64,000 nt of DNA from Tachypleus tridentatus (lineage: Eukaryota). Under the pieces are notes generated by a model that did no database searches, was not told the DNA's origin, and saw nothing but the letters and a program-made list of their open reading frames with translations. Numbering within the stretch: the stretch's first letter is position 1; each line of letters opens with the position of its first letter. The stretch is taken from contig NC_134831.1 in NCBI RefSeq assembly GCF_004210375.1, forward strand, positions 98,889,522 through 98,953,521, in the 5' to 3' direction. Below are positions 9,209-49,452 of the stretch, piece by piece. The position numbers and the translations under genes were made by a program.

Positions 9209-11520
9209 TTAACTTAATATTATATATATATTTATATACGAGTTTTCTTTAAGATGCCTTTAACTTAATATTATATATATATTTATATACGAGTTTTCTT
9301 CAAGATACCTTTAACTTAATATTATATATATATTTATATACGAGTTTTCTTCAAGATACCTTTAACTTAATATTATATATATATTTATATACGTTTTCTT
9401 CAAGATACCTTTAACTTAATATTATATATATATTTATATACGATTTTCTTCAAGATGTCTAACTTAATATTATATATATATTTATATACTAGTTTTCTTC
9501 AAGATACCTTTAACTTAATATTATATATATATTTATATACGAGTTTTCTTCAAGATGTCTTTAACTTAATATTATATATATATTTATATACGAGTTTTCT
9601 TCAAGATACCTTTAACTTAATATTATATATATATTTATATACTAGTTTTCTTCAAGATACCTTTAACTTAATATTATATATATATTTATATACGAGTTTT
9701 CTTCAAGATGTCTTTAACTTAATATTATATATATATTTATATACGATTTTCTTCAAGATGTCTAACTTAATATTATATATATATTTATATACTAGTTTTC
9801 TTCAAGATACCTTTAACTTAATATTATATATATATATTTATATACGAGTTTTCTTCAAGATACCTTTAACTTAATATTATATATATATTTATATACGAGT
9901 TTTCTTCAAGATACCTTTAACTTAATATTATATATATATTTATATACGAGTTTTCTTCAAGATACCTTTAACTTAATATTATATATATATATTTATATAC
10001 GAGTTTTCTTCAAGATGTCTTTAACTTAATATTATACATATATTTATATACGAGTTTTCTTCAAGATACCTTTAACTTAATATTATATATATATATTTAT
10101 ATATGAGTTTTCTTCAAGATACCTTTAACTTAATATTATATATATATATTTATATACTAGTTTTCTTCAAGATGTCTTTAACTTAATATTATATATATAT
10201 TTATATACGAGTTTTCTTCAAGATACCTTTAACTTAATATTATATATATATATTTATATACGAGTTTTCTTCAAGATACCTTTAACTTAATATTATATAT
10301 ATATATATTTATATACGAGTTTTCTTCAAGATACCTTTAACTTAATATTATATATATATATTTATATACGAGTTTTCTTCAAGATGCCTTTAACTTAATA
10401 TTATATATATATTTATATACGAGTTTTCTTCAAGATACCTTTAACTTAATATTATATATATATATTTATATACGAGTTTTCTTCAAGATACCTTTAACTT
10501 AATATTATATATATATATTTATATACGAGTTTTCTTCAAGATGCCTTTAACTTAATATTATACATATATTTATATACGAGTTTTCTTCAAGATACCTTTA
10601 ACTTAATATTATATATATATATTTATATACTAGTTTTCTTCAAGATGCCTTTAACTTAATATTATATATATATTTATATACGAGTTTTCTTCAAGATACC
10701 TTTAACTTAATATTATATATATATTTATATATAGTTTTCTTCAAGATACCTTTAACTTAAAGATATATATATATTTATATACGAGTTTTCTTCAAGATGC
10801 CTTTAACTTAATATTATATATATATATTTATATACGAGTTTTCTTCAAGATGCCTTTAACTTAATATTATATATATATTTATATACGAGTTTTCTTCAAG
10901 ATACCTTTAACTTAATATTATATATATATTTATATACGAGTTTTCTTCAAGATACCTTTAACTTAATATTATATATATATTTATATACGAGTTTTCTTCA
11001 AGATACCTTTAACTTAATATTATATATATATTTATATACGAGTTTTCTTCAAGATGCCTTTAACTTAATATTATATATATATTTATATACGAGTTTTCTT
11101 CAAGATGCCTTTAACTTAATATTATATATATATTTATATACGAGTTTTCTTCAAGATGCCTTTAACTTAATATTATATATATATTTATATACGAGTTTTC
11201 TTCAAGATGCCTTTAACTTAATATTATATATATATTTATATACGAGTTTTCTTCAAGATACCTTTAACTTAATATTATATATATATTTATATACGAGTTT
11301 TCTTCAAGATACCTTTAACTTAATATTATATATATATTTATATACGAGTTTTCTTCAAGATGCCTTTAACTTAATATTATATATATATTTATATACGAGT
11401 TTTCTTCAAGATGCCTTTAACTTAATATTATATATATATTTATATACGAGTTTTCTTCAAGATGCCTTTAACTTAATATTATATATATATTTATATACGA
11501 GTTTTCTTCAAGATGCCTTT
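9209..11520. repeat. Tandem minisatellite, about 51-bp unit (ctttaacttaatattatatatatatttatatacgagttttcttcaagata), about 45 copies.
   Basis: The period of about 51 bp is directly visible, with variants gatgcc, gatacc and gatgtc. The ORF 9455..9874 read through it is an artefact. Confidence 0.95.
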
Positions 11521-13469
11521 GGGGAAAATTGAACCATTGCATGAGATAAATAGAGGATTATGAGCAAAATTAAGGAAATACGATAAGTAAGTGATAATAA
11601 GGAAGCCAGATTTACAAGAATTTACAGTATTAAAAAATAAAGTTATAATGTATAAGTGTCATCGTCTCTTTTTACAAGTTCCATTGTGTTAAGTGGGCAA
11701 CCAACTGGTTCAGAAAATTTTCCCTTACTCTAAAAATCTCTAGTTGGGAACATCTGAATGAGCCGAGTTTTCCCCTGTTGTTTATTACTAAAACAACCAT
11801 ACATTAACAAATTATATTTTAGTAGACAGATGAAGGTGAAGTCTAGGAACTCTTGATGTCTCCTGCAGCCAACTTTCAGTTTAAATTCTTGGCAGAGTTT
11901 AGCGGCAGTTGTCACTCATCCAATCTCATGTTGGACATGATAAAACGAACATTATACACATGCTTATTATATGTACGTAGATTCTCTGTTGTAATTTAAA
12001 ACTCTACGTGGTGTCTGGAAAGTCTGGAAGCACAGGCACTACGGTGAATTTTACGGAATATTTCCCTTGTAATTCAAAATAAGCTTGGATTAACTTGACC
12101 TTTTCATGCTTTGACAACACCATAATCAGTCAGGTGACAAATATTAAGGAAAGCTGCAACAAACTGTTATACCAGGTGTCTGGAAAGTCTGGAAGCACAG
12201 GTAAAGTATTTGGTGTTTGTAGGGGAAGGGGGGATAAAAAAAAACAGAATACTTCTAGGAGCTTTGTTTACTAAATACAGACATGAACAACTGTTATTGC
12301 TGCAAGTCTTTACTACTATTATGTCCTTTTAAGTGATTGTAATATTCTGTTAAATGTGTTTATCACTCATCAATATCTTGGCCATTTCTTTACAGTAGAA
12401 ATGAATGTGGTTACCTCCACGATTTCAGAAGTTTCTAACATGGTGTGCAAGTAAGACTGAATGTGTATGACTTTCATGACTAGAAACTGATTGAAATTGG
12501 TTCTTAATAGTTAAATCTTTAAGGTTGGATGTTAGCCTTGGAGTCAAATTTTACTAGTGTCCTCGCTGTCATTATTCTGGTTAGGAATATTTTTGGAGCT
12601 TTTTTTACTTATTTCTAGATGGAGAATGTCGTTTACATAGCTCTCTTTTTATGGATTCTTATTGGAATGTTCTCAATAGTAAAATCTATTTAACTCTTAG
12701 CTCATTAGCAGTAGATTCTCAGAATTCTTTTCTCTTTCTCCTCTAAACTTTCATCTTCCACAATAAAAGGGCACACCATCATTTCTCTCTTTTCCAACTA
12801 AAGAACATCAGTTGTTGAAGATTCACTCTGTCATATTTTTCATATAACTCTTCCTCATGCACTTGACTCTTTTGGTGGTAACGGGGCATTTCACAACCTA
12901 ATTAAATGATTCTGGACAAGCATAAAAACTAATTCTAAAACATCATCAGTCACAGGTGAATTTGTCCAAAAAACTTTACAGGCAAGGCATTTAGACATAC
13001 CATGCGATTTCTATCCCTTTATTCAATATAAAGTTTGAGAACTTTTGTGCGTACCGTGTATGCACACTTGACACAGAATGTCAGTTAGGGAAGCTAATAA
13101 ATTTCTCTTGCTATAGTTACCCAGCTAACTTATTAAAATACTCAAATTATCAGTGTATTTAAGTACACATTAATAATAATAATTACACAAATATCTAGAA
13201 TTTTAACTTTTAACCTACAAAACTAGGTCAGTCAGCTAAGGAGGTGTCACATGCACTTTCTTGTGATAAAAACTGTTGTATGTCCAAAATTCACTAATTA
13301 ATTATAAGCAGAAGACAACTTAGATTTGATTTCATCCTTTCTCACAACTCTGCATGAAAATCTCTCAGTAAAAATAAAAACCACAACATTAAAAAACTTA
13401 CATAGAAAAAAAAAACAAGATGGTAACATGTAAATCGACAGATTTTCCATATTCAGACACTATGTTATT

Positions 13470-13796
13470 TTGATGTCCCAGAAGCTTTTGACATGGTGTG
13501 GCATGAGGTTTCAGATATAAACTACACAATATTAGCATTCTGACCCCATGTTTAACATGTTCTCACTTTTTATCACTAATGGCTGGAGTCCCTCAAGGAT
13601 CCATACTAAGCCCCATATTTTACAATGTATTTGTTAACAACATACCCCCCCACACACACACTTCTTTAATGTATAGATTAACCTTCCAATATGGAGATGA
13701 CATAGCTATGTGGAGTGCATCAAGTAACACTCATAATGTCACTTACAGAGTTCAAGCCTCACTTAATACAACATCAGAATGGTGTAATAAATAATG
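13470..13796 (+). mobile_element. Non-LTR retrotransposon RT fragment (pseudogene).
   Basis: Translations show ..FDVPEAFDMVWHE.. and ..AGVPQGSILSPIFYNVFVNNIP...QYGDDIAMWSAS, i.e. the RT motifs KAFDxVxH, GVPQGSxLSP and YADD, spread over two frames. Confidence 0.7.
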
Positions 13797-15873
13797 TGTT
13801 ACCTTTACCAAAACATAAGCAGAATAAATAGGTCCAGGAGAAAACTTAGGAATTTAAAACTACAATTAAGTAGTACAACAGCCAATATATTAAGTTCATA
13901 GGTCTAGCCTTTCCATCCAACATATCCTGATATTAATGACATTAACAGCAGAACTTGTGCCAGAATTAATTATCTTAAGACATATTGGTGACTTCAACAA
14001 AGGTTGCTCCATCAAAACCATTATCACAATTTATAAAGCTTACTTTTGACTCCTTTTCAAGTAATGGTAACGTAGTAACAAGACAAACAACCAATATAAC
14101 AAAATACAGAATCTACAGAATTAAATACCCCCCCTAAAAAAAAAAAATCTTAAGTCCTGTCAACAATCAAATAAACACAATATCTCCTAATTTATAAAAA
14201 TACTTTATGATGATGTCAGCAAATTAATAAGAAAACAAAAACTATAGAAGTCAAAACTCAAACAAATTCCATGTAATGAAAGTTCTAAGTACTAAAAGGT
14301 TTTAAAGGTATCCATAAAAATGGGCCCCCTCATGGGAAGAAAGAGAAGCTTTGTGCAAGTCTTAAACATATTGCTTATCTTGACCTTGGCATTTCTGTTA
14401 GTGATTTTAAAATTTGCTACTATCAAATACTATAATACAGAGAAAACATTATAAGCTATAAAACCAGTGTCTATTACTAAAAACTAAGAGAACCTGACGT
14501 GTCCTACTCTCAGATAGCAAAGACAAACATTATGGTAATGAAATACCTGTTCTTTATTGTTTTTGTATATTTATTAACACAATCACAGACATGAAACATT
14601 TAAAATGGTAATTGTGGATGCACAGTAACAACTTGTTTTGGACTTGTAGTTGCACAATTTTTAACCATAATAACAAGCTACTAACCTTGAAGTAATTTTA
14701 ATTTGTTTGAAACTTAGTAAAAGTTTAAACACCTTAGACAATAGATTGGCTTGTTTCAAAGTTACATAATAAGTATCTATGTCCATAATTTTAAACCATT
14801 TGCTTCTTTTGAAATTAAGCATTAAAAGTTATTTGTGGTCTGTCCACTATCAGTATTAATCCTTTCGGCGAGATTGGCGACTGCAGTTGAACTGAAGTCT
14901 CAGTACGGCAGGCAACCTTCCTTTATTCCTGTTCTTCTTATGTATTTAATTTAACATATATAGTATTGGGTACAATCACTGAACATTTCAGGGACTTTTG
15001 TTGAGTTATTGCCAAGATATCATGTTTTTAGTACTGATACCGTAATTAGTTGAAGTATCAAACATATATATTCAGCACCATACCAAACATTCAAAGTTGT
15101 TATTTAGTGCTGAAAGGGGTAAAACCCATTTTCTGGCAGTGTGAGTCTACAGAGGTACTGTTGTTCCACTGGAGGGCAGTTTTGAACTGAAAAAATTACT
15201 TGGGTTATTCTAAGATTTGAAGTACCCATGACCTCAATGTGGAGTGTAATTTTTTCTTTGTTTTTGGTAACAGGATACAAACCATTGACCTTGTTTCCAC
15301 AGTCCAACACACTAACTATAAGGCCAAGCTCAACCCTTTAACGTTAGGAAACGTTAGTCTGTAATTTCTGGAGTTCAAGAAAAGCTGTGTATGATAAATA
15401 TACTATCTGAATTTTGAGAAAACTAATTTAAAAACTGCAAGATTAGTAGCAACCACCATTTACAAATACTATCTTAAACATATTTCTATGGAAAATACAA
15501 CCACTGTTACTGCACGTCCTCCAAACATAATTTGAATAAAAAGTTCTTTGAGATAACAATTTCAATCAATGGTAACAACAAAAAAGGCTTCCTTTGATTT
15601 AGCCTAATCTAAGAAGTAACAAACATGTTATTATTTGTTTAATGTTGCTAGAGAAATAGTGAGTAAAGAAAACAATCTACACATTTCAGAAAAAACAACA
15701 CAAATATCAATATGGTGTCGAAGTTACAACTGCATCAAAACATTGCAGTAAATTACTAACTAACCATAAATGGTTTTATTATCTTAATTTCTATTAACTG
15801 TTACCAAGACTAATAATAGAAATATTTATTGTGTAACCCATTGGATGATGATATAACAAAATTACATAATTAA

Positions 15874-15951
15874 CAACACAACGGAGTGCTTGAAATTAAC
15901 GACACAACGGAGTGCTTGAAATTAACAACACAATGGAGTGCTTGAATTTCT
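15874..15951. repeat. Short tandem repeat, 27-bp unit (aacaacacaacggagtgcttgaaatta), 3 copies.
   Basis: Seen directly in the sequence. Confidence 0.85.
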
Positions 15952-16207
15952 GACTGTGAATGTGTGATGATGCTAGTCTGTCAATCAGTGTAATTTCTCA
16001 GAATGTGATATCCATTTGATAAACTAGTCTACACTTCTTCTCTGTGCTGAAATAAAGAAATGTTACAAATAAGCAAGTGCTCTGTGTTATACACTTCATA
16101 TTTTTATAAATGCACACTAATATAATATACTTAAAATACTTAAATGTTACTACGTTTATCACACTCTAAAGATTACAAACTATCTTAGTTTACTAGAAAC
16201 ATTATAC

Positions 16208-16318
16208 CTGAGATGATTTGACTCCAATAAGTCCTTTTGCTGTACTGAAGAGGTTAAGAGGAGTGGCGCCATCTGTAATTAATGCTGATTGGATGCCAAG
16301 CCCTTGTAAGAGCTTCAC
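16208..16318 (-). CDS. MVP: MVP exon m. Encodes [37 protein letters not shown]. It ends at a donor site, so at least one more 3' exon exists.
   Basis: Acceptor ttatttccag|GTGAAG and donor TCTCAG|gtatat. Matches human [34 protein letters not shown]. Confidence 0.85.
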
Positions 16319-17164
16319 CTGGAAATAAATCATTTATAAAAAAAAAGCACACTTCTATAGAGTTTAAAATTAATTCTATATGTGACCTTCAATCTATAAT
16401 ACAATTATTGATAGTAATTAATATATTTCTATTTCATCAAACATTTAAATTAAACTCGAAACAACTATGCTGGAGGTGAACATGTAGTTAACTTTAACAG
16501 GAAATGATACATTACATTTCTTTTAAAATTAAAAAACAAACATCAACAAATATTAAAATTAATAGAAAACTATAATGAAAAATTTGTAGTTTTCTAGTTT
16601 TAACACACATTTATTTCTTGCTTTTTATTTATTTTTACTCATAAAATTATATATTTATTTAAAGGTTTCTCATGTTTCTTTTACTTTTATGAGTTACTCC
16701 AAATTAATCGCATAGAAGTTTCAAACATACAGTTTCATATAAAAATGCCTCATCACTCAAATCTTTAAGTTTTCAATGCATTCTGTGATTAAGACAGACA
16801 TAACATACATTTATAAAAACTAAGTAAAGTTTCATGTTCTCAAAAGGGCATCTTATAAATGTGATCTGCAAAAAACATTATAATGGATTTGAGCAAAAAT
16901 AACAGATACACAAAATGAATACTTTATCAAAATCAAAGCTATTAGTGGTGTTCTACTTACAAGTTGAGAGAACACAATGTAGAGAACACAAGAGAAATAT
17001 AAATCATTGATTTATTCTTTTTCACTTTATGTCTCTTTAAACATAGACTCGGACATGGAACTGACCTCATAACCAGTTTGTGCTTATTATGGTTTTTATG
17101 CTGTTACTTTGAAATCAGTAAGCATATGTTCACAAAATTTGATAGATTACACTATGTAACACAA

Positions 17165-17580
17165 ATTTTGTTCCTGGATAGTGTGTGTTATTTCTTAACT
17201 GCTTATGTTGTAAAAGTACAGAAAATGGCCATTATTCCCTTCAAACTTTGCTTTTGTGACCTGGATAATGAAATTTAGAAATTAACCTATTTTCTAGGTA
17301 AAAACAGGCAATAAAACAACATATGAACCAAGATTTACATGTATTTATACTAAAGTTATACAAAAATGTTTAGAAGTGAGTAGTTTTTCGAGATTTGCGA
17401 CTGTAATGTAAATCACTTTCACGTATCAGCCTCCAAATACAGTCTCCCATCATGTTTTCGTTATACACTCCCAGGTCACAAAAGCAAAGTTTGAACAGAA
17501 AAATAGGTTTTTTCCATTTACTTTAGGCATAAGCAATTGGGAAATAACATTTTGTGCCCAGGAACAAGAAAAAGTAAAAA
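17165..17580. mobile_element. MITE-like element, copy 2, inverted relative to copy 1. It lies in the MVP intron between exons m and l.
   Basis: Its termini are ttgttcctgg ... ccaggaacaag. The internal inverted repeats are cccttcaaactttgcttttgtgacctgg and caggtcacaaaagcaaagtttgaac. Its reverse complement aligns with 3100..3515 along the full length. Confidence 0.65.
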
Positions 17581-17785
17581 TGTTGTTACTTAGTGTTATC
17601 AATAAATATTACAATGCATTAGTACACAAAATTTGATTTGTTTTACTGAGTCTTAAGATTTGCCAACTAATGTTTTTCTTATGCCTTTTTTCTTCTTGCA
17701 TATTTCTCATCCAAGAAGCAAAATTATTTTATTTTTAAGATTATAAATACTTTTATGCATCAGAAAAGTTTCATATTTCACATAC

Positions 17786-18257
17786 ATTTCTTATAATGTC
17801 TAGATAGTTATCAAATACTTCTTATAATGTCTAGATAGTTATCAAACATTTCTTATAATGTCTAGATAGTTATCAAACATTTCTTATAATGTCTAGATAG
17901 TTATCAAACATTTCTTATAATGTCTAGATAGTTATCAAACATTTCTTATAATGTCTAGATAGTTATCAAGCATTTCTTATAATGTCTAGATAGTTATCAA
18001 GCATTTCTTATAATGTCTAGATAGTTATCAAACATTTCTTATAATGTCTAGATAGTTATCAAACATTTCTTATAATGTCTAGATAGTTATCAAGCATTTC
18101 TTATAATGTCTAGATAGTTATCAAACATTTCTTATAATGTCTAGATAGTTATCAAACATTTCTTATAATGTCTAGATAGTTATCAAACATTTCTTATAAT
18201 GTCTAGATAGTTATCAAACATTTCTTATAATGTCTAGATAGTTATCAAACATTTCTT
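17786..18257. repeat. Tandem minisatellite, 31-bp unit (catttcttataatgtctagatagttatcaaa), about 15 copies. It lies in the MVP intron between exons m and l.
   Basis: Period 31 bp, with aaca/agca variants. Confidence 0.95.
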
Positions 18258-19570
18258 AAGAAACATCTTTATATTTTATCTGTTATTTTCACTAACAAAT
18301 CTCCATTCAGATTCATTCAATTTGACTGGTTATTGTAACCATTATAAAAAATTACAAAACCAATATAAATTATGCCTGTTTCATTCTAGAATGACTAGAG
18401 ATAACATGTTTAGACTAAGTAGTTTAAATTTTATAACATTAAACATTTATGAATATTTATTACTTTTTATTATATCGACCTTTCAGCCATTCCTGGCTAA
18501 CAACACAAAAGTTACAATCACACAGCTCATGTCCATTCCTGTTACCAATCCAATAATACAAAACTGACCAGTCTTGATAATGTTTTGTGGACTAGTAATT
18601 TGTATAATACAGTCAAATTTCATTTATTATACATTATTACTATTTACAAATAGATTCTCAAACTTATAAAGAAGTAAAACAAACAGTTATTTCTTCTAGT
18701 TACAACCTTTGTATTCGGTTACTGCTCGTTGTAGCTTGCTAAACCTTAATAAACTGTGCATGTGGAAGACTTGAAAAGTAATAATATTTCTTCAGTTTTA
18801 TATATACTTTTGAATAATAATAAAAAACTCTGCTACATCACAGAATTCCTTTATAATTTATCAAGTTTAGTTACTAAACTCTGTTTGGGTTTAAGAGAAA
18901 AGGAATTTTGAACAGGCTAAAGACTCAACTTACCAGCACAAAGGTTTCTCTCAAAAGAAAGTGATGCCCCAGTTATATTTGAAAATGGCTGATGAAACCA
19001 CTAAAGAGGTATTCTGAGTTTTCAATTGGTTATAACATATCATATATATATATATATAATAAGTGTATATAAAACACAGTTTCAAAAAATAAAAAGTGAT
19101 AAGAGGACCATTGTCTTTGATTGAATACAAGAATGATATCTAAGCAAATAGAAAAGAGAGAAGTTTCTTATTTCATATTCTAGCTTGTCAATATTGGTAA
19201 TTTGAGTTCCTAATTCATACAAAACTACAGACTTTGAATCTTGACATCACAAACATTCAATTTAAACCAGTGTACTGGATTCAGAATACGACACAACACA
19301 AAAATCTGTGTTTAGGTGCATTTTTTAATATTTATTTTTAAATTAAGAGGCCAAATAATGTATAATACAAAGTTCTACACTGTAATCTACAGTTGGATAC
19401 CAAACTTAATGATACAAATTCAAGAAATAATAGTTCAGTAAAGTTTTGAATGCAAATCAACAAACATGACAAGATGACCTTTGACCCATGACCTATTTGG
19501 AAAGGGTTATACGAACACAAAATGCTACTTCCCATAACACTGGATTTAAAATTACGTCCTACACACTCAC

Positions 19571-40123: not shown

Positions 40124-40729
40124 CTATGATAATAAAAAAAACATGCTGCACAAAATTTTACACTAAAAATATTCAAACAAAATATTTCAATTACAAATGT
40201 TTTGATACTTTTACAATAAAATAATGTAACTAGGAAATTTACCACATACATATATGTAAACTATTTCTGTAATTTATGTGGAAGGAATGAAAATTATATT
40301 AACTTGTTCAATATGCATGATGTACATGCTGTAACGTATTTACTCTTATGCATTTATTTTAAAGTTTGCTTCAGTTATAAATATATATTCAGAAATGCAT
40401 GTAACTTATATTGTTAAATGTGTATTGTGAAAGTCCTGCCTGTTCTCTAAATTTGTAGAAGATTGTAGTGCATAAAAATCAACAGCGTACTAGGTGTTTA
40501 TGTAATACTAGTTATTGACAGTATTGTTACCAAGTGAACTTCAGAAAATGTCTTTTACAATATTTATAAATCAATGTGGCAAGAGACAAAATAATATTGT
40601 TGGTCTGCCACAATCAGTACACTATAAGCCTTGGGAGCTATAACTGTGATAAACACTTATCAATCAGAAAACTACAGATACTTAACCAGGAACGTTTATA
40701 GAGTTTGAATGTTACAAAACAAAATACAG

Positions 40730-40900
40730 ATCTAAATAATCTGAGGACAAACTATAAAACTAATATTATTTTATTTACAAAAAACAAACATAAAACAGTG
40801 TATTATTGGGCATAAGATATGAAGTGATACATGGATCCTAAATTTGAAACATTTTAAAGACCTAAATTATAAATAAATCATAAAGAAATAATTATGTAAC
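40730..40900. repeat. Dispersed repeat copy. The partner copy lies at about 41800..41970 at roughly 85% identity.
   Basis: The string ..ctgaggacaaactataaaactaatattattttatttacaaaaaacaaacataaaacagtgtattattgggcataagatatgaagtgatac..aaattataaataaatcataaagaaata recurs at 41800..41970. Confidence 0.7.
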
Positions 40901-41334
40901 TCAAGAATTAACTTTGAATGTTAATATTTCTTTAAAAATATCACATACTTTCAATGGAAAAACTTGTGTGAGGAGCAAGAGATACCTTAGTTGTACTGAT
41001 ATCAACATTAAGTTATTCATTCATCGTGAATCGTGCATAAAATATTCAGTTCCAGACCAGATAATGTTGTTTGTAAAACTCTTGTATATAAGCCATTATT
41101 TGTAATAACTGTTATTATAAATTGTATTGTTGCTTGTATATTAAAATATATTTATGTTAAGAAAGAAAACAGCGTGTATCAATCTTACTGGCAAGCATCA
41201 TAAATTTGATAAATATTAACATTCAATTAACTTCTAAATTAAAATTAAAATTTCCAGCTATTGGAAATTGTAAAAATGTACATAACATAATAAATCAGAG
41301 ACTTGTCCTACGTAAATTATAATACATAACAACA

Positions 41335-41470
41335 TACACACTTCAATCAATATTCTTGGTATGTTGTTTTTTAATTGCTACAGCACGTATTGATAAATTA
41401 CCATTATAAAGCTAATTCACATACCAAGAATATTGATTGAAGTGAGTACGTTGTTACAGCAATTAAAAAA
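41335..41470. repeat. Nested inverted repeat / palindrome (cttcaatcaatattcttggtatg ... cataccaagaatattgattgaag, with the outer pair ttttttaattgctacagcacgta / tacgttgttacagcaattaaaaaa).
   Basis: Seen directly in the sequence. The arms are about 23 bp with a roughly 50-bp spacer. Confidence 0.7.
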
Positions 41471-42173
41471 AAATATATTTTTCAAACTTAAATAAACAAA
41501 CAATAAATTACAGAAATGGAATGTCACATAATTTTACAGGACATTAGATAAAACAAATGAATCACATCATAGAAGGATAATGTCAGATTAAACTATTGTT
41601 TCTTCATCATTACATAGTACAGTTAACAAATTAAGAAAAGATTATACTATCACTTAGCGAAGTAGCTAATTCCCTACTCATATATGCTGTATTTCATACA
41701 CCCTATTTTATTTCTGTAATATAAGAAACACTGTGTGCAGTTCACTCAAACTGGATTAATGTCACAAGTGGGCCCAGTTTCAGTCTCAATGATTAAACAC
41801 AAAATAACCTGAGAACAAACAATAAAACTTGTATTTTATTTACAAAAAAACAAACATAAAACAGTATATTACTGAGCATAACATATAAAGTGATACACTT
41901 ATTCTAAATTTGAAAAATTTTAAAGTCCTAAATTATAAATAAATCATAAAGAAATATTTATGTAACTCATGTCTGTAACTTAGCACCATGTATATTCCTT
42001 TAGAGATCAAACCATATAATCAAACATATACTTAAAATTTTGTGATATTTAAAACCTCACATTTAGAAATATTACAATCCACAAATTTATTTATAAAACA
42101 TTAATAATTTGCACAACAAAATTGTGTTTTATTCATGATGAAAGCATAAAATTTGCCAAAAAAAGTACACAAA

Positions 42174-42503
42174 GAGATCACTTTGTGGTAGATGTTGGTA
42201 CCAAGCAGTATTATCTTACTCAGATCACTTTGTGGTATATGTTGGTACCAAGCAGTATTATCTTACTCAGATCACTTTGTGGTAGATGTTGGTACCAAGC
42301 AGTATTATCTTACTCAGATCACTTTGTGGTAGATGTTGGTACCAAGCAGTATTATCTTACTCAGATCACTTTGTGGTATATGTTGGTACCAAGCAGTATT
42401 ATCTTACTCAGATCACTTTGTGGTAGATGTTGGTACCAAGCAGTATTATCTTACTCAGATCACTTTGTGGTAGATGTTGGTACCATGCAGTATTATCTTA
42501 CTC
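42174..42503. repeat. Tandem repeat, 47-bp unit (cagatcactttgtggtagatgttggtaccaagcagtattatcttact), about 7 copies.
   Basis: Period 47 bp. ORF 42122..42535 is an artefact. Confidence 0.95.
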
Positions 42504-42861
42504 TGTATTTGAAACACCCTCTTTCATCTCTGTAATAAATGAAAAACTGTCAAAATAAATATTCAAGCAAAAACTGTCAATAGACTTGAGCTGATTGATG
42601 CCATTTAAGTGATCAAATTAAGATTGATTGGCTATGATTTCAAAAATGTCAAAATTTGCTTTTTGTGTGGTTAAGAATTACCTATTAAATTCTTTTTCTA
42701 TATTTTTTGTCTAATACTGTGTTGTTTTTTTGTATAGCTATAGTTTAGATTATAAGTTACTATTCCATTTGCACTTATTTCATAAAATGCCAAATGCATA
42801 TGTACAAACCAAACTAGTAATTATAACAGTGATGTTGAAAAAACCCACTTGTAGAGAAAAA

Positions 42862-42982
42862 TATATATGTAAAAACGGCTCGTTTAGGTTGAGAAAATTT
42901 TTTACGTAGAGGAGCTAACAACGTTTCGACCTTCCATGTAAAAACTTTTCTCAACCCAAACGAGCTGTTTTTACATATATAT
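42862..42982. mobile_element. Small hairpin (foldback) element with a 37-bp inverted repeat (2 mismatches) around a 47-bp loop.
   Basis: The left arm is atatatatgtaaaaacggctcgtttaggttgagaaaa. The right arm reverse complement is atatatatgtaaaaacagctcgtttgggttgagaaaa. Confidence 0.6.
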
Positions 42983-43129
42983 TTAAACTGGTAATTAATC
43001 ACATAAAACCGAGTGATCAGAATTGAAGTTATAAACAAAAGATATAAAATTATCTATACAAGTGTGAGGGATAAGTTATCAAATTCGATAGAAGAGTGGC
43101 TGGACTGATGGAAGCAAAATGTTGTCACA

Positions 43130-44100
43130 AACTGAGTTCATTCAAACTGGATTAATGTCACAAGTGGTGTACCTGAGGTCCCAGTCTCAGAACCTTTTTT
43201 ATTTTCATCAGTGACACAAATGAAGGAATGATCAATAAGTTATTTAACTTTACAGATGATATTAAGGACTTGGATGTTGCTAGCTGTGAAGAGGATGCTT
43301 CTGATCTATAAAAATATTTAGATCATTTAGTAAATAAATGTCAGATGGGTTTTAATTATACTAAATGCAAGATACATGTGGGTAATCACAATTCAAATTA
43401 TAAGCATAATTTGGATAGAAATAAACTAAACAGTGTTATGAAGGAAAGTGTTCTTGGTGTAATAACCACGATTAATCAGTATCTGAAACCATCCAAGCAA
43501 TGTCCTGTTGCTTGTGGTGGAGCAAATAGTATTTTGGGTTGTATGTACAGAAATACTGAATACAAGTCTAAATATGTTATAATTTCATTGTTTAGATCAC
43601 TGGTTAGCCCATATTTGAAATACTGAGTTCAGTTTTGGGCTCCTTACCTAAGGAAAAACATTGAATTGTTGGAAAGGGTTCAGAGAAAGGTAACTAGGAT
43701 GGTGTCTGGGAGGGAGTGTTGTTATGACTTTCAAATTATTTTCTCTTAATTAAAGAAGAGTTTGGACAGTTTGATTGAAATGTTTGAAATTATAGAGAGA
43801 ACTGATAGTGTTGATGTATTATCTATTTTTATATTTAACAATGAAAATAGTAGTTAAAGGGGACACAAATATAACTTTTGGCAGGGTAAGAATCATTATC
43901 AGCTAGACAGTTTCATTTTTCTAACAGGTTGGGTGCCCTTTGGAATGAATTGTCTTCATACATTATAGAGGTAATAAATTTAAGTAAGCTTAAATTAAGT
44001 ATATGAATGATAAGGGTTGGCTTTAAGATTTTTAAAAAAATATTTTAGCTTAATTTAGAAGATGGAATAGTTGAGATGGAACAACAGGTCCCTATTGTCC
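43130..44100 (+). mobile_element. CR1-like LINE 3' fragment (RT C-terminal region and 3' end), plus strand.
   Basis: The translation reads ...INKLFNFTDDIKDLDV...LDHLVNKCQMGFNYTKCKIHVGNHNSNYKHNL...SLFRSLVSPYLKY*VQFWAPYLRKNIELLERVQRKVTRMVSG, about 80% similar to the minus-strand copy at 20560..21010. Confidence 0.75.
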
Positions 44101-44277
44101 TAAAATGTTATATTATAAGCTATCAAGATTCTCAGGTACACTGAGATTCAAGAATACTGCTATAATATAAGCAAAAACCATTATTCAGATAACAGTATAT
44201 AAATGCTACAAATGACTACTTTTCACAGTTATAGTACCCATATTGGCTAACCCGAATTGTGCCACAAAGTTTGTTAC

Positions 44278-44409
44278 CGGCAGGACAGTATCATCTGTAA
44301 AAGTTTCTTTGGCTCGTAGGATCAATCCTTCATTTTCTCCCAGAACACAGATGTCTTGAATACCATTTTCTAGTCTTTCTCCAGGCATAAGAAAGAAAGA
44401 TATTTCACC
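44278..44409 (-). CDS. MVP: MVP exon e. Encodes [44 protein letters not shown].
   Basis: Acceptor atcaatag|GGTGAA and donor CTGCCG|gtaaca. Matches human [41 protein letters not shown]... Confidence 0.85.
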
Positions 44410-44654
44410 CTATTGATAAAAAAAACAGCTACAAACATGTGCTTATAAAACATAATTCTTTACAAAATCAACAACGGTACGTGTGTAAGGAAAGATTCAG
44501 ATATTTTACTCATTTCATGACAAATTTATGATACAAAGAAAAATATATATTATTAAAACTCCACAGAGATTGTTGTTTGTGATGTTAAAAACTGTGTTTT
44601 ACCATCAGTTAAAGGAAACAACTGTAACAGTTCCATAAATTCTCATCAGTATTT

Positions 44655-46750
44655 CAATTTCTTATACAGTGGGCTTATGAAATAAGAGAGGCAGTTATAA
44701 TTAAAACATTCAACATACTTTAACCAATTTCTTATGCATACAGTGGGCTTATGAACTAAGAGACACAGTTATAATTAAAACATTCAACATACTTAACCAA
44801 TTTCTTATGCATACAGTGGGCTTATGAACTAAGAGACACAGTTATAATTAAAACATTCAACATACTTTAACCAATTTCTTATGCATACAGTGGGCTTATG
44901 AACTAAGAGACAGTTATATTAAAACATTCAACATACTTTAACCAATTTCTTATGCATACAGTGGGCTTATGAACTAAGAGACACAGTTATAATTAAAACA
45001 TTCAACATACTTAACCAGTTTCTTATGCATACAGTGGGCTTATGAAATAAGAGACACAGTTATAATTAAAACATTAAACATACTTTAACCAATTTCTTAT
45101 GCATACAGTGGGCTTATGAACTAAGAGACAGTTATATTAAAACATTCAACGTACTTTAACCAATTTCTTATGCATACAGTGGGCTTATGAACTAAGAGAC
45201 AGTTATAATTAAAACATTCAACATACTTTAACCAATTTCTTATACATACAGTGGGCTTATGAAATAAGAGACACAGTTATAATTAAAACATTCAACATAC
45301 TTAACCAATTTCTTATACATACAGTGGGCTTATGAAATAAGAGACACAGTTATAATTAAAACATTCAACATACTTAACCAATTTCTTATTCATACAGTGG
45401 GCTTATGAACTAAGAGACAGTTATATTAAAACATTCAACATACTTTAACCAATTTCTTATGCATACAGTGGGCTTATGAACTAAGAGACACAGTTATAAT
45501 TAAAACATTCAACATACTTAACCAGTTTCTTATGCATACAGTGGGCTTATGAACCAAGAGACACAGTTATAATTAAAACATTAAACATACTTTAACCAAT
45601 TTCTTATGCATACAGTGGGCTTATGAACTAAGAGACAGTTATATTAAAACATTCAACGTACTTTAACCAATTTCTTATGCATACAGTGGGCTTATGAACT
45701 AAGAGACAGTTATAATTAAAACATTCAACATACTTTAACCAATTTCTTATACATACAGTGGGCTTATGAAATAAGAGACACAGTTATAATTAAAACATTC
45801 AACATACTTAACCAATTTCTTATACATACAGTGGGCTTATGAAATAAGAGACACAGTTATAATTAAAACATTCAACATACTTAACCAATTTCTTATTCAT
45901 ACAGTGGGCTTATGAACTAAGAGACAGTTATATTAAAACATTCAACATACTTTAACCAATTTCTTATGCATACAGTGGGCTTATGAACTAAGAGACACAG
46001 TTATAATTAAAACATTCAACATACTTAACCAGTTTCTTATGCATACAGTGGGCTTATGAACCAAGAGACACAGTTATAATTAAAACATTAAACATACTTA
46101 ACCAATTTCTTATACATACAGTGGGCTTATGAAATAAGAGACACAGTTATAATTAAAACATTAAACATACTTTAACCAATTTCTTATGCATACAGTGGGC
46201 TTATGAACTAAGAGACAGTTATATTAAAACATTCAACATACTTTAACCAATTTCTTATGCATACAGTGGGCTTATGAACTAAGAGACACAGTTATAATTA
46301 AAACATTCAACATACTTAACCAATTTCTTATACATACAGTGGGCTTATGAAATAAGAGACACAGTTATAATTAAAACATTCAACATACTTAACCAATTTC
46401 TTATGCATACAGTGGGCTTATGAAATAAGAGACACAGTTATAATTAAAACATTCAACATACTTTAACCAATTTCTTATTCATACAGTGGGCTTATGAACT
46501 AAGAGACAGTTATATTAAAACATTCAACATACTTTAACCAATTTCTTATACATACAGTGGGCTTATGAAATAAGAGACACAGTTATAATTAAAACATTCA
46601 ACATACTTTAACCAATTTCTTATACATACAGTTGGCTTATGAACTAAGAGACACAGTTATAATTAAAACATTCAACATACTTTAACCAATTTCTTATACA
46701 TACAGTGGGCTTATGAAATAAGAGACAGTTATATTAAAACATTCAACATA
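44655..46750. repeat. Tandem minisatellite, 70 to 76-bp unit (ttaaccaatttcttatRcatacagtgggcttatgaaMtaagagacacagttataattaaaacattcaacatact), about 29 copies. It is contiguous with the 3' end of MVP exon d.
   Basis: On the minus strand each unit reads ...AAGAAATTGGTTAAAGTATGTTGAATG..., which is the last 15 nt of exon d plus its GTATGT donor. Confidence 0.95.
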
Positions 46751-46751
46751 C

Positions 46752-46988
46752 TTTAACCAATTTCTTTTGGCCTAGCTGAGGGGTCCCATCTTCATTAAGA
46801 GGATCAAGAATAACACAGTACTGACGCTTAGATAATGTTGTAATAGATACCACACCGACCACCTGTTCATACACACCCGGTATGTAAGTTTCTGTGTCAG
46901 TCATTTTGATCAACCACTCCTGTCCATTTCTTCTTTCGACTCCCAGCTCATCACAAAATGTACAAGTCGCCCTTACGTGTACTGCTTC
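46752..46988 (-). CDS. MVP: MVP exon d. Encodes [79 protein letters not shown].
   Basis: Acceptor tctgtttcag|GAAGCAG and donor GGTTAAA|gtatgt (phase 0). Matches human [79 protein letters not shown]. Confidence 0.9.
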
Positions 46989-47568
46989 CTGAAACAGACC
47001 CAAGTTTACTAATATAAGTTTGATATGTCAGCATGTGAAATGAATAAGCAACAACAACAACAAAAAACAGAAGTGAAAATGTTATACTTTGAAAGTCACG
47101 AAAAACAAATTTACACTTGTTATAAAAACAACAGTGTATGAAGTGAAAAATAATTCTCAGATGAATTTTGATGAATGGTAACAAGACCACCTGTGAGGTC
47201 AACAAAAGTACACACGTTTGTGTATAAAGTGCTTCATATAATCCAATGTTCAAATAGCTAAGGTTACTGGGAGTTCCACATCTCTTAATATTTGTTTTCA
47301 AAAACACTTAATAGGTTTACTCTGCTGACATATTATTTTTCAGAATTTTCAGATTTTAAACTTTCAAATACTGACACAGCTTTTACTTTATGATCAATGT
47401 GCATTATCTGTGTGCAGCAGGAAACAACTAAATAGTTTAAAAAGAAACATGTTATTTATGTGTTGGTTCCATGTTGAGTCTTACATGGTGATGACCGTAA
47501 CTAACCTGCTTTTCTCATAATCATGCATCGTAAAGTAAAATATAATTGGTGGGGAAAAAAAGAAAAAA

Positions 47569-48030
47569 GGTCAAACATTGTAAAAACAGCAAAATAAGCT
47601 AAAAACAAACATTAGTTTATATCAAAGGTCAAACACTGTGAAAACAGCAAAATAAGCTAAAAACAAACATGAGTTTATATCAAAGGTCAAACACTGTGAA
47701 AACAGCAAAATAAGCTAAAAACAAACATTAGTTTATATCAAAGGTCAAACACTATGAAAACAGCAAAATAAGCTAAAAACAAACATGAGTTTATATCAAA
47801 GGTCAAACACTATGAAAACAGCAAAATAAGCTAAAAACAAACATGAGTTTATATCAAAGGTCAAACACTGTGAAAACAGCACAATAAGCTAAAAACAAAC
47901 ATTAGTTTATATCAAAGGTCAAACACTGTGAAAACAGCACAATAAGCTAAAAACAAACATTAGTTTATATCAAAGGTCAAACACTGTGAAAACAGCAAAA
48001 TAAGCTAAAAACAAACATTAGTTTATATCA
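47569..48030. repeat. Tandem repeat, 59-bp unit (gtcaaacactgtgaaaacagcaaaataagctaaaaacaaacattagtttatatcaaag), about 8 copies.
   Basis: Period 58 to 59 bp. Confidence 0.95.
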
Positions 48031-48201
48031 AGGTTTAATAAATATTTATGTCAGTTAACAGTCTTTTCATTATGTGACATGATGGATCATAAAATTGCGG
48101 AATTATTATATATGCAGAAGTTTTCATATTGGTACTTAAAATACAGGAATGGAAATACATTTAGTGCTGCATGTCTTTTCCTTCCAAATCACAGTAGTTA
48201 C

Positions 48202-48428
48202 CTTTTCTGTCAAAACATATGCATTAACAATATCCACAATTTCTTCATAAGCTCCAGGTAGATAAGCACCTATCTTTCTGACAAGCCACTCCTCTCCACA
48301 CACCCTTATCTTTCCACCTCTGTCTCTTGTCTCTGTACAAGCTCGAAGTTTTAAAGCCTGATTCGGTTTGATTACAAAAGCTCTCACTGTTTCCACAACT
48401 TCAACCTCCTTACAAGGAATGTATGTCC
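48202..48428 (-). CDS. MVP: MVP exon c. Encodes (G)[75 protein letters not shown].
   Basis: Acceptor ..ttaacatag|GGACATAC and donor GAAAAG|gtaact. Matches human [76 protein letters not shown]. Confidence 0.9.
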
Positions 48429-48430
48429 CT

Positions 48431-49452
48431 ATGTTAAAAAATAAATATCAAACATCCATTGGTGATGTATGTTCCTATATAACAGAATAAATATCAAACA
48501 TCCATTGGTTGCTGTATAACACTATGTTACAGAATAAATATCAAACATCCATTGGTTGATGTATAACACTATGTTACAGAATAAATATAAACATCCATTG
48601 GTTGATGTATAATACTATGTTACAGAATAAATATCAAACCTCCATTGGTTAATTATGTTCCTATGTTACAGAATAAATATCAAACGTTCATTGGTTGCTG
48701 TATAACACTATGTTAGAAAATAAATATCAAACATTCATTGGTTGCTATATAACACTACGTTACAAAATAAATATCAAACCTCCATTGGTTGATTATGTTC
48801 TTATGTTACAGAATAAATATCAAACATTCATTGGTTGCTGTATAACACTATGTTACAAAATAAATATCAAACATCCATTGGTTGATGTATAACACTATGT
48901 TAGAAAATAAATATCAAACCTCCATTGGTCACTGTATAACACTATGTTACAGAATAAATATCAAACCTCCATTGGTTGCTGTATAACACTATGTTACAAA
49001 ATAAATATCAAACATCCATTGGTTGCTGTATAACACTATGTTACAAAATAAATATCAAACATTCATTGGTTGCTGTATAACACTATGTTACAGAATAAAT
49101 ATCAAATATTCATTGGTTGCTGTATAACACTATGTTACAAAATAAATATCAAACCTCCATTGGTTGCTGTATAACACTATGTTAGAAAATAAATATAAAA
49201 CCTCCACTGGTTGCTGTATAATACTATGTTACAGAATAAATATCAAACATTCATTGGTTGCTGTATAACACTATGTTACAAAATAAATATCAAACCTCCA
49301 TTGGTTGATGTATAACACTATGTTACAGAATAAATATCAAACCTCCACTGGTTGCTGTATAACACTATGTTACAAAATAAACATCAAACATCCATTGATT
49401 GCTGTATAACACTATGTTACAGAATAAATATCAAACCTCCACTAGTTGCTGA
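48431..49452. repeat. Tandem minisatellite, 47-bp unit (tatgttacagaataaatatcaaacatccattggttgctgtataacac), about 21 copies. It starts immediately upstream (in transcript sense) of the MVP exon c acceptor.
   Basis: On the minus strand the units contain gatatttattctgtaacatag, which copies the polypyrimidine tract and AG acceptor. The second unit also copies the first 10 nt of the exon (GAACATACAT against GGACATACAT). Confidence 0.95.

What the first reader, a model, noticed from the sequence alone, without database searches (positions are those of the whole stretch)
9209..49452. Extreme density and diversity of unrelated minisatellite families within one gene
At least 17 arrays with different units (27, 31, 40, 43, 45, 47, 47, 49, 51, 52, 54, 59, 60, 67, 67 and 72 bp, among others) lie in or next to the introns of a single gene. 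Most are highly homogeneous, with over 95% unit identity, which implies recent or ongoing expansion. Several are over 1 kb and one is 3 kb. Together with the 8-kb satellite they make up roughly 38% of the window. This is unusual relative to typical metazoan genic regions. It may reflect a genome-wide propensity of this species, as some bivalves, chelicerates and other invertebrates show, or a local hotspot.
Basis: seen in the sequence. Interest (0 to 1): 0.55.

Follow-up and report, generated by a model that had tools for sequence, protein, structure and literature searches.

The report
Home-grown minisatellites filling a horseshoe-crab gene
The introns of the major vault protein gene of the horseshoe crab Tachypleus tridentatus are about 40% short tandem-repeat arrays, each copied on the spot from a stretch that is single-copy in the Atlantic horseshoe crab; this is ordinary repeat biology at unusual density, and I could not test whether it is local or genome-wide.

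Summary
Tandem Repeats Finder (TRF) finds 20 arrays, with units of 25-73 bp, in 9209-49452. They cover 16.4 kb, or 40.7% of the interval. With the 8.2-kb 63-bp satellite, 38.9% of the window is tandem repeat; shuffled sequence gives 0-81 bp.

The gene is the major vault protein (MVP) gene on the minus strand. Fourteen exons splice with GT-AG sites into residues 53-863 of the NCBI Tachypleus tridentatus MVP, exactly. Eighteen arrays lie in introns 3-13, one probably in the 3'UTR and one 4.5 kb downstream. The satellite lies in intron 1.

The units are mutually unrelated and have no solo copies in the window. The Limulus ortholog locus aligns through introns and flanks at about 62-85% identity. 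It holds exactly one copy, with conserved flanks, at the positions of at least 9 arrays. These arrays were therefore born in situ from unique sequence, not carried in by transposable elements (TEs) or dispersed satellite families.

Two arrays duplicate splice sites: at least 23 donor copies and about 20 acceptor-like copies.

The spider MVP locus (GCA_947563725.1) has no such arrays, so this is not a property of the gene. Local hotspot versus species-wide propensity stays open, because Tachypleus loci could not be fetched. This is a known kind of sequence at unusual density.

The parts
15800..64000 (-). Major vault protein (MVP) gene of Tachypleus tridentatus: part of intron 1, exons 2-15 and the putative 3'UTR. 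Exon 1 lies beyond the window end.
   Evidence: The spliced CDS equals residues 53-863 of P0121 exactly. It aligns to residues 44-852 of solved MVP structures with E=0. Exon 1 was not found in the window.
53187..53382 (-). MVP exon 2
51230..51350 (-). MVP exon 3
48202..48428 (-). MVP exon 4. Its 3' splice site is the last unit of the 47-bp array.
46752..46988 (-). MVP exon 5. Its last ~15 nt and its donor GTATGT form the start of the 73-bp unit.
44278..44409 (-). MVP exon 6
39974..40123 (-). MVP exon 7. The 45-bp array starts 6 nt into the following intron.
34526..34785 (-). MVP exon 8
33649..33846 (-). MVP exon 9
32422..32563 (-). MVP exon 10
24181..24392 (-). MVP exon 11
20062..20305 (-). 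MVP exon 12
19571..19759 (-). MVP exon 13
16208..16318 (-). MVP exon 14
16029..16046 (-). Coding part of MVP exon 15 (HREEV, then stop)
9209..11520 (.). 51-bp x45 array, intergenic, 4.5 kb downstream of the MVP stop codon
   Evidence: TRF. Its flanks are adjacent in Limulus, with one unit at about L001:38433-38480.
15868..15946 (.). 26-bp x3 array in the putative 3'UTR, 83 nt after the stop codon
17784..18258 (.). 31-bp x15.3 array in intron 13, inside a segment with almost no Limulus counterpart. It has a 10-nt terminal direct repeat.
21445..21578 (.). 47-bp x2.9 array in intron 11. It is a tandem duplication inside the ORF of a decayed LINE (GLTVELCEDTNQMGG repeated).
21968..23119 (.). 52-bp x22 array in intron 11, with no Limulus counterpart. 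It has a 9-nt terminal direct repeat.
24534..25274 (.). 54-bp x14 array in intron 10
   Evidence: One copy in Limulus at L001:33144-33196 with conserved flanks
25534..28518 (.).
   Evidence: One copy in Limulus at L001:32723-32807. The left flank resembles the unit end, an imperfect direct repeat read by eye.
28972..29034 (.). 31-bp x2 duplication in intron 10, related to the neighbouring 42-bp unit
29288..30438 (.). 42-bp x27 array in intron 10
   Evidence: Partial single counterpart at L001:31937-31972; the flanks overlap there
31485..31927 (.). 49-bp x9 array in intron 10
   Evidence: The flanks are adjacent in Limulus (L001 ~30097/30105); the unit itself was not detected
33010..33288 (.). 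68-bp x4.1 array in intron 9
   Evidence: One copy in Limulus at L001:29089-29146, 90-92% identical
34878..35350 (.). 40-bp x11.8 array in intron 7, 93 bp from exon 8
   Evidence: no Limulus counterpart
35341..35509 (.). 39-bp x4.3 array in intron 7, abutting the 40-bp array and weakly related to it
36144..37792 (.). 69-bp x24 array in intron 7, inside a 3.9-kb segment with almost no Limulus counterpart
39408..39556 (.). 25-bp x6 array in intron 7
39742..39968 (.). 45-bp x5 array starting 6 nt after the donor site of exon 7
   Evidence: one copy in Limulus at L001:22302-22351
42175..42503 (.). 47-bp x7.0 array in intron 6
   Evidence: The single Limulus counterpart, L001:20616-20660, is one arm plus loop of an inverted repeat
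44664..46766 (.). 73-bp x28.9 array spanning the exon 5 / intron 5 boundary. It fills 89% of intron 5, carries at least 23 copies of the donor site, and has a 507-bp higher-order period.
   Evidence: every unit hits the single segment L001:19614-19696
47566..48031 (.). 58-bp x8 array in intron 4
   Evidence: One copy in Limulus at L001:18797-18890
48429..49451 (.). 47-bp x21.9 array ending exactly at the 3' splice site of exon 4. Each unit carries a T-rich tract plus AACATAG, and three units also carry exon-start-like GGAACAT.
   Evidence: one copy in Limulus at L001:18338-18412
49573..49807 (.). 104-bp x2.2 duplication in intron 3
55825..63995 (.). 63/128-bp satellite of at least 128 copies and at least 8.2 kb, running almost to the window end. 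It lies in MVP intron 1.
   Evidence: exon 1 is absent from the window; no Limulus match

Best explanation
These are young minisatellites, private to this locus, that arose in situ in and around the MVP gene of Tachypleus tridentatus after its lineage split from Limulus.

Each array began when a short stretch of ordinary unique DNA, 25-104 bp long, was duplicated head to tail. The source could be intron sequence, a decayed LINE ORF, one arm of a hairpin, or a piece spanning an exon-intron junction. In about a third of cases the stretch lay between short direct repeats of 7-13 nt. In the rest the junction has 0-2 nt of homology. I infer replication slippage, flap misprocessing or template switching.

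Once two or more copies existed, out-of-register sister-chromatid exchange or replication slippage expanded the array to between 2 and 50 copies (at least 128 in the intron-1 satellite) and kept the copies alike. This sometimes moved multi-unit blocks.

The arrays are tolerated because they are intronic. The coding sequence is intact, and arrays stop at or share exon edges without changing the annotated protein. They are best read as neutral intron bloat, not as functional elements. They account for roughly 90% of the size difference from the Limulus ortholog.

Shown here: the identity of the gene, the positions of the arrays, the lack of relation among units, the single-copy orthologous state with conserved flanks, the whole-number array lengths, and the duplicated splice sites.

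Inferred: the molecular mechanism of birth and expansion, neutrality, and scope. My guess on scope is a horseshoe-crab-wide tendency that is locally intense here.
For: Gene identity: the 14-exon GT-AG model equals P0121 residues 53-863 exactly, and P0121 is annotated as T. tridentatus MVP-like.

Load: 41% of 34.9 kb of intron DNA is tandem array.

Units are unrelated to each other, and none has a solo copy elsewhere in the window.

Orthology: L001 (Limulus) is colinear with the window through introns and the 3' flank at about 62-85% identity, whereas the paralog L002 matches exons only.

In situ origin: the 51, 54, 60, 68, 45, 47, 73, 58 and 47-bp units each have exactly one Limulus copy with conserved left and right flanks, and none of these positions adjoins an assembly gap.

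Reciprocal case: a Limulus 102-bp x3.9 array matches a single ~87-bp stretch at window 53962-54048.

Array geometry: 17 of the 18 arrays that could be phased end within 13 nt of a whole number of units. Eleven are within 2 nt. Four carry a 7-13 nt terminal direct repeat, whose chance probability is 0.0002 each.

The 73-bp unit was flanked by AAGAAATTG at the exon-5 end and again about 70 nt downstream.

Recency: intra-array matches are 89-100%, against about 74-92% between a unit and its Limulus copy, and the 73-bp array has a 507-bp (7-unit) block periodicity.

Not a property of the gene: the spider MVP locus has no minisatellite.
Against: The Limulus comparator is a short-read assembly (GCA_000517525.1, five N-gaps inside the gene). 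Such assemblies can collapse tandem arrays, so 'single copy in Limulus' could partly be an artefact. Against that, the same assembly does keep arrays of 0.4-0.9 kb at this locus, and none of the nine positions adjoins a gap.

About half of the arrays (for example 69, 52, 40/39, 25, 104 and 63 bp) have no Limulus counterpart. They lie in segments with little or no Limulus counterpart, so a TE-borne origin is not excluded for them.

No read-level, population or RNA data were available. Copy-number polymorphism, the accuracy of the assembly within arrays, and the silence of the extra splice sites are therefore untested.

The mechanism of birth is inferred only from junction anatomy.
Confidence: 0.78

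Rival explanations
1. Pure local hotspot. The T. tridentatus genome as a whole has an ordinary minisatellite load. This roughly 55-kb region is a regional outlier, for example because it adjoins or contains a large satellite block, sits near a chromosome end, or is a recombination or replication-stress hotspot.
For: Published genome-wide figures are low. 'Simple, small RNA, satellite, low complexity' is 1.61% in T. tridentatus and 2.26% in C. rotundicauda (PMC7815833 supplement). Simple repeats are 0.77% (PMC7011531). The window is at 39%.

Within the window, the first 9.2 kb has 0.9% tandem repeat and 53379-55824 has none.

In the same Limulus assembly the ortholog carries 3-4 arrays (3.8%) and the paralog carries one (1.2%).
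Against: The published figures come from short-read or linked-read assemblies and from RepeatMasker classes that under-count minisatellites or file them as 'unclassified'.

One array is intergenic. Arrays arose from every kind of substrate, and independently in Limulus, which looks like a general mutational tendency.

I could fetch no other Tachypleus locus.
Confidence: 0.35
2. Pure species feature. This density is about average for T. tridentatus genes, so nothing is special about the locus.
For: In situ births occurred on arbitrary substrates, inside and outside the gene, and in both horseshoe-crab lineages at this locus. T. tridentatus is reported to have more repeats, including unclassified ones, in genic regions (PMC7815833).
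Against: Total repeat content is reported as 33-40%, of which about 31% is TE-classified. A genome-wide tandem fraction near 39% is therefore impossible. The window itself has a 9-kb stretch with under 1%.
Confidence: 0.12
3. The arrays are internal tandem repeats of transposable elements, or members of dispersed satellite families that inserted into the introns.
For: About half of the arrays lie in segments with little or no Limulus counterpart. The 47-bp x2.9 array lies in a LINE remnant. The 31-bp array abuts a dispersed repeat at 18222-18500.
Against: At least nine arrays have a single orthologous unit with conserved flanks in Limulus. Two units contain MVP exon sequence. Array flanks share no homology with one another, and no unit recurs elsewhere in the window or in 103 kb of Limulus sequence. 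Array lengths are whole multiples of the unit. The LINE case is a duplication of the LINE's own ORF, not a repeat that the LINE carried.
Confidence: 0.06
4. Assembly artefact: the arrays are mis-assembled or artificially expanded.
For: No reads were available to check. Tandem arrays are error-prone in assemblies.
Against: Units within arrays differ by substitutions and 1-bp indels arranged in blocks. Array lengths of 0.06-3 kb, and 8 kb or more for the satellite, are within long-read spans. Flanks and the gene model are intact and colinear with Limulus.
Confidence: 0.03
5. The arrays are functional, for example as intronic regulators of MVP expression or splicing, or as small-RNA sources, and are kept by selection.
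For: Three arrays abut splice sites, against 0.41 expected (P=0.006).
Against: The arrays are not conserved in Limulus. The units are unrelated. There are no Rfam or tRNA hits. The spider ortholog lacks them. The abutment is explained as easily by exon edges acting as hard limits on array growth.
Confidence: 0.03

Closest known systems
Human F7 intron 7 37-bp VNTR, whose first repeat spans the exon 7 / IVS7 boundary (Borensztajn et al. 2006, PMC1557585)
   Same: In the 73-bp array the first unit contains the last ~15 nt of exon 5 and the authentic donor AAA|GTATGT. Later units repeat it: at least 23 donor copies, 16 of them with the exact 9-mer. The annotated protein is consistent with use of the most upstream site only.
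   Different: There are 29 units of 73 nt rather than a few of 37 nt. The array is AT-rich. There is no transcript evidence here that the pseudo-sites are silent. The same gene also has a mirror case at a 3' splice site (the 47-bp array), which the F7 paper does not describe.
Minisatellite-birth model: slipped-strand mispairing between non-contiguous short direct repeats (Haber & Louis 1998; Taylor & Breden 2000; cited from my own knowledge, and the term is used in papers found)
   Same: The ancestral single-copy state is visible in Limulus. The 73-bp unit was bracketed by a 9-nt direct repeat, and four other arrays end in direct repeats of 7-13 nt.
   Different: Most arrays have only 0-2 nt of junction homology. 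Slippage between direct repeats cannot explain all of them, and another duplication route is needed.
Duplication signature of yeast rad27 (FEN1) mutants: 5-108 bp duplications flanked by 3-12 bp direct repeats (Tishkoff et al. 1997; cited from my own knowledge)
   Same: The size range of the duplicated segment (25-104 bp) and of the flanking repeats (0-13 nt) matches that signature.
   Different: This is a resemblance only. Nothing here tests flap processing in horseshoe crabs.
Classical human hypervariable minisatellites and subtelomeric minisatellite clusters (cited from my own knowledge)
   Same: Unit size is 10-100 bp, arrays are 0.1-20 kb, several different arrays cluster together, and copies are kept alike within an array.
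   Different: The arrays here are AT-rich (18-48% GC) and share no core motif. Their chromosomal position is unknown, and polymorphism is untested.
Intronic minisatellites of amphioxus genes (e.g. the Adh locus, Canestro et al. 2002; cited from my own knowledge)
   Same: An invertebrate gene whose introns carry several unrelated minisatellites.
   Different: The density here is far higher (41% of intron DNA, 18 arrays), and the in situ origin is documented against an outgroup.

Membership tests
Minisatellite / VNTR | Head-to-tail arrays of units of about 10-100 bp | tested here: met
   TRF periods are 25-73 bp, plus one of 104 bp, with 2-50 copies, or at least 128 for the 63-bp array
Minisatellite / VNTR | Copy number varies between individuals | not testable with these tools
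   Only one assembly is available, with no reads or population data
Minisatellite / VNTR | GC-rich shared core motif (classical human hypervariable class only) | tested here: not met
   Array GC is 18-48%, and no motif is shared among units
Dispersed satellite DNA family (satellitome member) | The same monomer is present at several unlinked loci | tested here: not met
   No unit has a copy outside its own array in the 64-kb window, nor outside the orthologous position in 103 kb of Limulus loci. The whole genome was not searchable.
TE-borne tandem repeat (internal arrays of Helitrons, MITEs and similar) | The array is bounded by TE termini, and the ortholog shows an empty site lacking both unit and flanks | tested here: not met
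   For at least nine arrays, Limulus has one unit with both flanks conserved. Array flanks share no homology with each other. This is untested for the arrays that lie in segments without a Limulus counterpart.
Exon-boundary-spanning VNTR with 5' pseudo-sites (F7 IVS7 type) | The first repeat spans the exon-intron boundary, and later repeats carry identical donor sequences | tested here: met
   73-bp array: the unit starts about 15 nt inside exon 5. There are 23 copies of AAGTATGTTG and 16 of AAAGTATGT.
Exon-boundary-spanning VNTR with 5' pseudo-sites (F7 IVS7 type) | Only the most upstream donor is used and the pseudo-sites stay silent | tested here: inconclusive
   The annotated protein P0121 has no insertion at the junction, but no RNA data were examined
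Major vault protein (the host gene) | Full-length collinear similarity to MVP, with Vault repeats and the shoulder domain | tested here: met
   E=0, 1082 bits over residues 44-852 of solved MVP. P0121 carries the Pfam Vault, Vault_2, Vault_3, Vault_4 and MVP_shoulder domains.

The most novel reading that the evidence does not exclude
Horseshoe crabs, or at least the Tachypleus lineage, have an unusually active mutational process that turns arbitrary unique 25-100 bp segments into minisatellites. This locus would then have recorded more than ten independent birth events that can be dated against an outgroup. They include arrays that multiply a donor and an acceptor splice site inside an intact, conserved gene. 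If so, it would be a natural system for studying how minisatellites are born and how the spliceosome ignores dozens of identical decoy sites, in animals usually described as slowly evolving.
Probability: 0.25. Interest if true: 0.6.

Novelty: new member of a known kind. Interest (0 to 1): 0.4.

Why it matters
Minisatellites are usually met when they are already old. Here at least nine arrays can be compared directly with their single-copy precursor in a sister lineage. That shows which segment was duplicated and what homology bracketed it.

The locus also contains two natural splicing experiments: 23 or more copies of a donor site and about 20 copies of an acceptor-like site, in a gene whose protein is intact.

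Practically, arrays like these inflate intron and gene length and are lost or collapsed in short-read assemblies. Published horseshoe-crab figures of 0.8-2.3% for simple repeats and satellites may therefore be underestimates.

If the density proves to be genome-wide, it would be an undescribed feature of horseshoe-crab genomes. If it is local, it marks a regional hotspot worth locating on the chromosome.

Tried and rejected
1. A genome-wide baseline for T. tridentatus. The look-up of encoding contigs found no record for P0121 or for two 'GVQW3-like' Tachypleus proteins located with my last protein search. The Uloborus MVP also failed. No other Tachypleus DNA could be read.

2. Literature. No paper in the library describes minisatellites or satellites of horseshoe crabs. 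Only coarse repeat tables exist. The Limulus 2025 paper has no supplement held as text.

3. Exon 1. Regex and tblastn searches, first with a recalled human N-terminus and then with the true P0121 N-terminus, found nothing in 53.4-64 kb.

4. My recalled human MVP sequence was used only as a tblastn probe. All claims rest on the PDB search and on exact identity to P0121.

5. My first exon-6 donor was wrong by 9 nt and was corrected against P0121.

6. In one search the BLAST database held both Limulus loci, so two interleaved hit series appeared. I separated them: series A is L001, the ortholog, and series B is L002, the paralog, matching exons only.

7. The TE-carrier hypothesis was rejected because array flanks share no homology and orthologous single copies exist.

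8. Rfam and tRNA scans found nothing.

Full report
**Observation.** Tandem Repeats Finder (TRF) on the whole window lists 27 rows describing 23 arrays. Twenty of them lie inside 9209-49452, with periods of 25-73 bp. They cover 16,392 bp, or 40.7% of that interval. Adding a 104-bp x2.2 duplication, one small array at 2185 and a 63/128-bp satellite at 55825-63995 brings the total to 38.9% of the window. Five shuffles of the window gave 0-81 bp of TRF output against 24.9 kb in the real sequence. Matches between adjacent copies are 89-100%. Seven arrays in the interval exceed 1 kb, and the largest is 2,985 bp. An all-against-all comparison of the consensus units, in every phase and on both strands, found only two physically adjacent pairs with any resemblance. 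The units really are unrelated.

**The gene and the organism.** Two long minus-strand ORFs looked like major vault protein (MVP), and Pfam confirmed Vault_4. I used a recalled human MVP only as a tblastn probe to locate exons, and then chose GT-AG boundaries by frame and similarity. The spliced product aligns to residues 44-852 of solved MVP structures with E=0. It is 100% identical to P0121, NCBI 'major vault protein-like [Tachypleus tridentatus]', 863 aa, on a 196-Mb contig. After I corrected one donor, the 14-exon CDS equals P0121 residues 53-863 exactly. The window therefore comes from the tri-spine horseshoe crab, and the gene is intact. The exon encoding P0121's first ~52 residues is not in the window. 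The window's high-coordinate end, including the 8.2-kb satellite, is therefore intron 1 of the same gene.

**Where the arrays lie.**
- Introns 2-14 total 34.9 kb, of which 14.2 kb (41%) is tandem array.
- Nine of the 13 complete introns carry 18 arrays. Every intron longer than 1 kb except intron 2 has at least one.
- Intron 5 is 89% array and intron 10 is 67%.
- A 26-bp x3 array lies 83 nt after the stop codon, probably in the 3'UTR.
- The 51-bp x45 array is 4.5 kb downstream of the stop codon. The Limulus annotation shows no gene there.
- The first 9.2 kb of the window is 0.9% tandem repeat.

**Origin of the arrays.**
- A self-comparison with array interiors masked found dispersed elements: a ~250-bp family, a 480-bp palindromic element and LINE fragments. 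It found no solo copy of any unit and no homology between the flanks of different arrays.
- The Limulus polyphemus homologs P0122 (89% identical) and P0123 (81%) gave loci L001 and L002.
- L001 is colinear with the window through introns and the 3' flank at about 62-85% identity. L002 matches exons only. L001 is therefore the ortholog.
- Every unit of the 73-bp array hits one Limulus segment, L001:19614-19696.
- The 47, 58, 45, 47, 68, 60, 54 and 51-bp units each also have exactly one Limulus counterpart, flanked by sequence orthologous to the Tachypleus flanks.
- None of these nine positions adjoins an assembly gap. The same assembly does retain arrays of 0.4-0.9 kb elsewhere in the locus.
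- Conversely, a Limulus 102-bp x3.9 array matches a single ~87-bp stretch at window 53962-54048.
- At least nine arrays were therefore made in situ from unique sequence after the two lineages split, and the process also ran in Limulus.
- The remaining arrays lie in segments with little or no Limulus counterpart. One of them, 47 bp x2.9, is a duplication within a decayed LINE ORF.
- By my estimate from the alignment coordinates, Limulus spans about 21.7 kb from exon 2 to the stop codon, against 37.35 kb in Tachypleus. The 14.2 kb of arrays explains about 90% of the difference.

**Anatomy bearing on mechanism.**
- I compared the phase of each array's end with the phase of its start. Seventeen of the 18 arrays that could be phased are within 13 nt of a whole number of units. 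Eleven are within 2 nt, and four carry a 7-13 nt terminal direct repeat. A chance run of 7 nt or more has probability 0.0002.
- For the 73-bp array the ancestral arrangement is readable. AAGAAATTG occurs at the end of exon 5 and again about 70 nt into the intron. Limulus has AAGAAACTG and AAGGAAGTG at the same two places.
- The 60-bp unit is likewise bracketed by an imperfect ~20-nt direct repeat, read by eye.
- The 47-bp array at 42175 amplified one arm plus loop of what is an inverted repeat in Limulus.
- The 73-bp array has a 507-bp (7-unit) higher-order period, and the 52-bp array has a secondary period at 571 bp. Both indicate growth by multi-unit blocks.
- I infer that arrays are born by slippage or template switching between short or absent homologies, and then expand and stay homogeneous by out-of-register exchange. 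This is the standard model and was not shown here.

**Splice sites.**
- Three arrays have an edge within 15 bp of an intron end, against 0.41 expected by random placement (P=0.006).
- The 73-bp unit begins about 15 nt inside exon 5 and includes the donor AAA|GTATGT. The array holds 23 copies of AAGTATGTTG and 16 of the exact 9-mer.
- The 47-bp array ends at the acceptor of exon 4. Its units each carry a T-rich tract plus AACATAG, giving 20-22 acceptor-like sites. Three units also carry exon-start-like GGAACAT.
- The 45-bp array begins 6 nt after the donor of exon 7.
- Because 73 and 47 are not multiples of three, use of a decoy site would shift the reading frame. The annotated protein shows no such insertion. 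No RNA data were available.
- The human F7 intron-7 VNTR is a direct precedent for the donor case (PMC1557585).

**Scope.**
- The spider Argiope bruennichi MVP locus (L003, GCA_947563725.1) has only homopolymer and dinucleotide runs and a few low-copy (2-3 copy) matches, about 1.2% by my sum of the TRF rows.
- The scorpion locus has about 2.6%.
- Limulus L001 has 3.8% and L002 has 1.2%.
- MVP as a gene is therefore not repeat-prone.
- Published T. tridentatus figures are 1.61% for simple repeats, satellites, small RNA and low complexity together, and 0.77% for simple repeats, with total repeats at 33-40%. All come from short-read or linked-read assemblies.
- These numbers rule out 39% as a genome average. 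They cannot tell a local hotspot from an under-counted general tendency.
- I could not fetch any other Tachypleus locus.
- Arguments for a general tendency: in situ births on every kind of substrate, an intergenic array, and independent births in Limulus.
- Arguments for local intensification: the low published totals, the quiet first 9 kb of the window, and the difference between the Limulus ortholog and paralog.

**Verdict.** The thing itself is of a known kind: AT-rich intronic minisatellites. It stands out for its density, for the number of independent in situ births that can be documented against an outgroup, and for arrays that multiply splice sites in an intact gene. No published description of it turned up in the library searched here. 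Novelty: a new member of a known kind. Interest is moderate.

Noticed in passing
window 54334-55040 (+): An internally deleted Mos1-type mariner remnant (HTH_48 domain). Its N-terminal ORF is 88-92% identical to four T. tridentatus proteins annotated 'GVQW3-like', 88% identical to a copy in the soft tick Ornithodoros turicata, and 93% identical to an unnamed ENA contig. Similarity that high across distant arthropods hints at horizontal spread of this mariner.
   Followed up: partly
window 740-980, 1476-1738, 7486-7738, 8403-8663, 20331-20492, 38858-39095; also L001 ~22800-24030: A dispersed ~250-bp repeat family, possibly SINE- or MITE-like, with six copies in the window and copies in the Limulus locus, so it is older than the species split. 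ARAGORN finds no tRNA-like head.
   Followed up: partly
window 3069-3548 and 17134-17613: Two copies, 80% identical, of a ~480-bp element that is itself a near-palindrome. It may be a MITE with long inverted arms. The second copy lies in MVP intron 13, next to the 31-bp array.
   Followed up: no
window 20495-21900 and 43062-43829 (-): Decayed LINE copies with reverse transcriptase (RVT_1) in introns 11 and 6. The intron-11 copy lies in the 20364-23934 stretch that corresponds to only ~0.8 kb in the Limulus ortholog, and it has itself undergone a 47-bp tandem duplication of its ORF.
   Followed up: partly
L001 11508-12394 and 13767-14172: The Limulus ortholog has its own intron-1 arrays (59 bp x15 and 102 bp x3.9). 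The 102-bp unit matches a single ~87-bp stretch in Tachypleus (window 53962-54048), so minisatellite birth ran independently in both lineages at this locus.
   Followed up: yes
L001 ~20600-20700 versus window 42175-42503: In Limulus this spot is an inverted repeat (hairpin). In Tachypleus one arm plus the loop became a 47-bp x7 array and the other arm is gone. This may be an example of a hairpin-triggered duplication.
   Followed up: partly
whole window: The window has almost no microsatellites. TRF reports no array with a unit under 13 bp and only one weak 13-bp hit, while 39% of the window is arrays with 25-104 bp units. Whatever generates these repeats favours segments of tens of base pairs.
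   Followed up: no
L004 25079-26570: In the scorpion Centruroides sculpturatus a second, partial MVP-like gene (339 aa, Vault_3 and shoulder domains) lies 2.7 kb downstream of the full MVP gene. It looks like a partial tandem gene duplicate.
   Followed up: no
window 53406-53382 (-): Just upstream of the exon-2 acceptor an in-frame ATG follows a TGA (MYSNTSMER...), and the stretch weakly resembles the MVP residues normally encoded at the end of exon 1. This is probably chance, but it could mislead gene predictors into calling an N-terminally truncated protein.
   Followed up: partly
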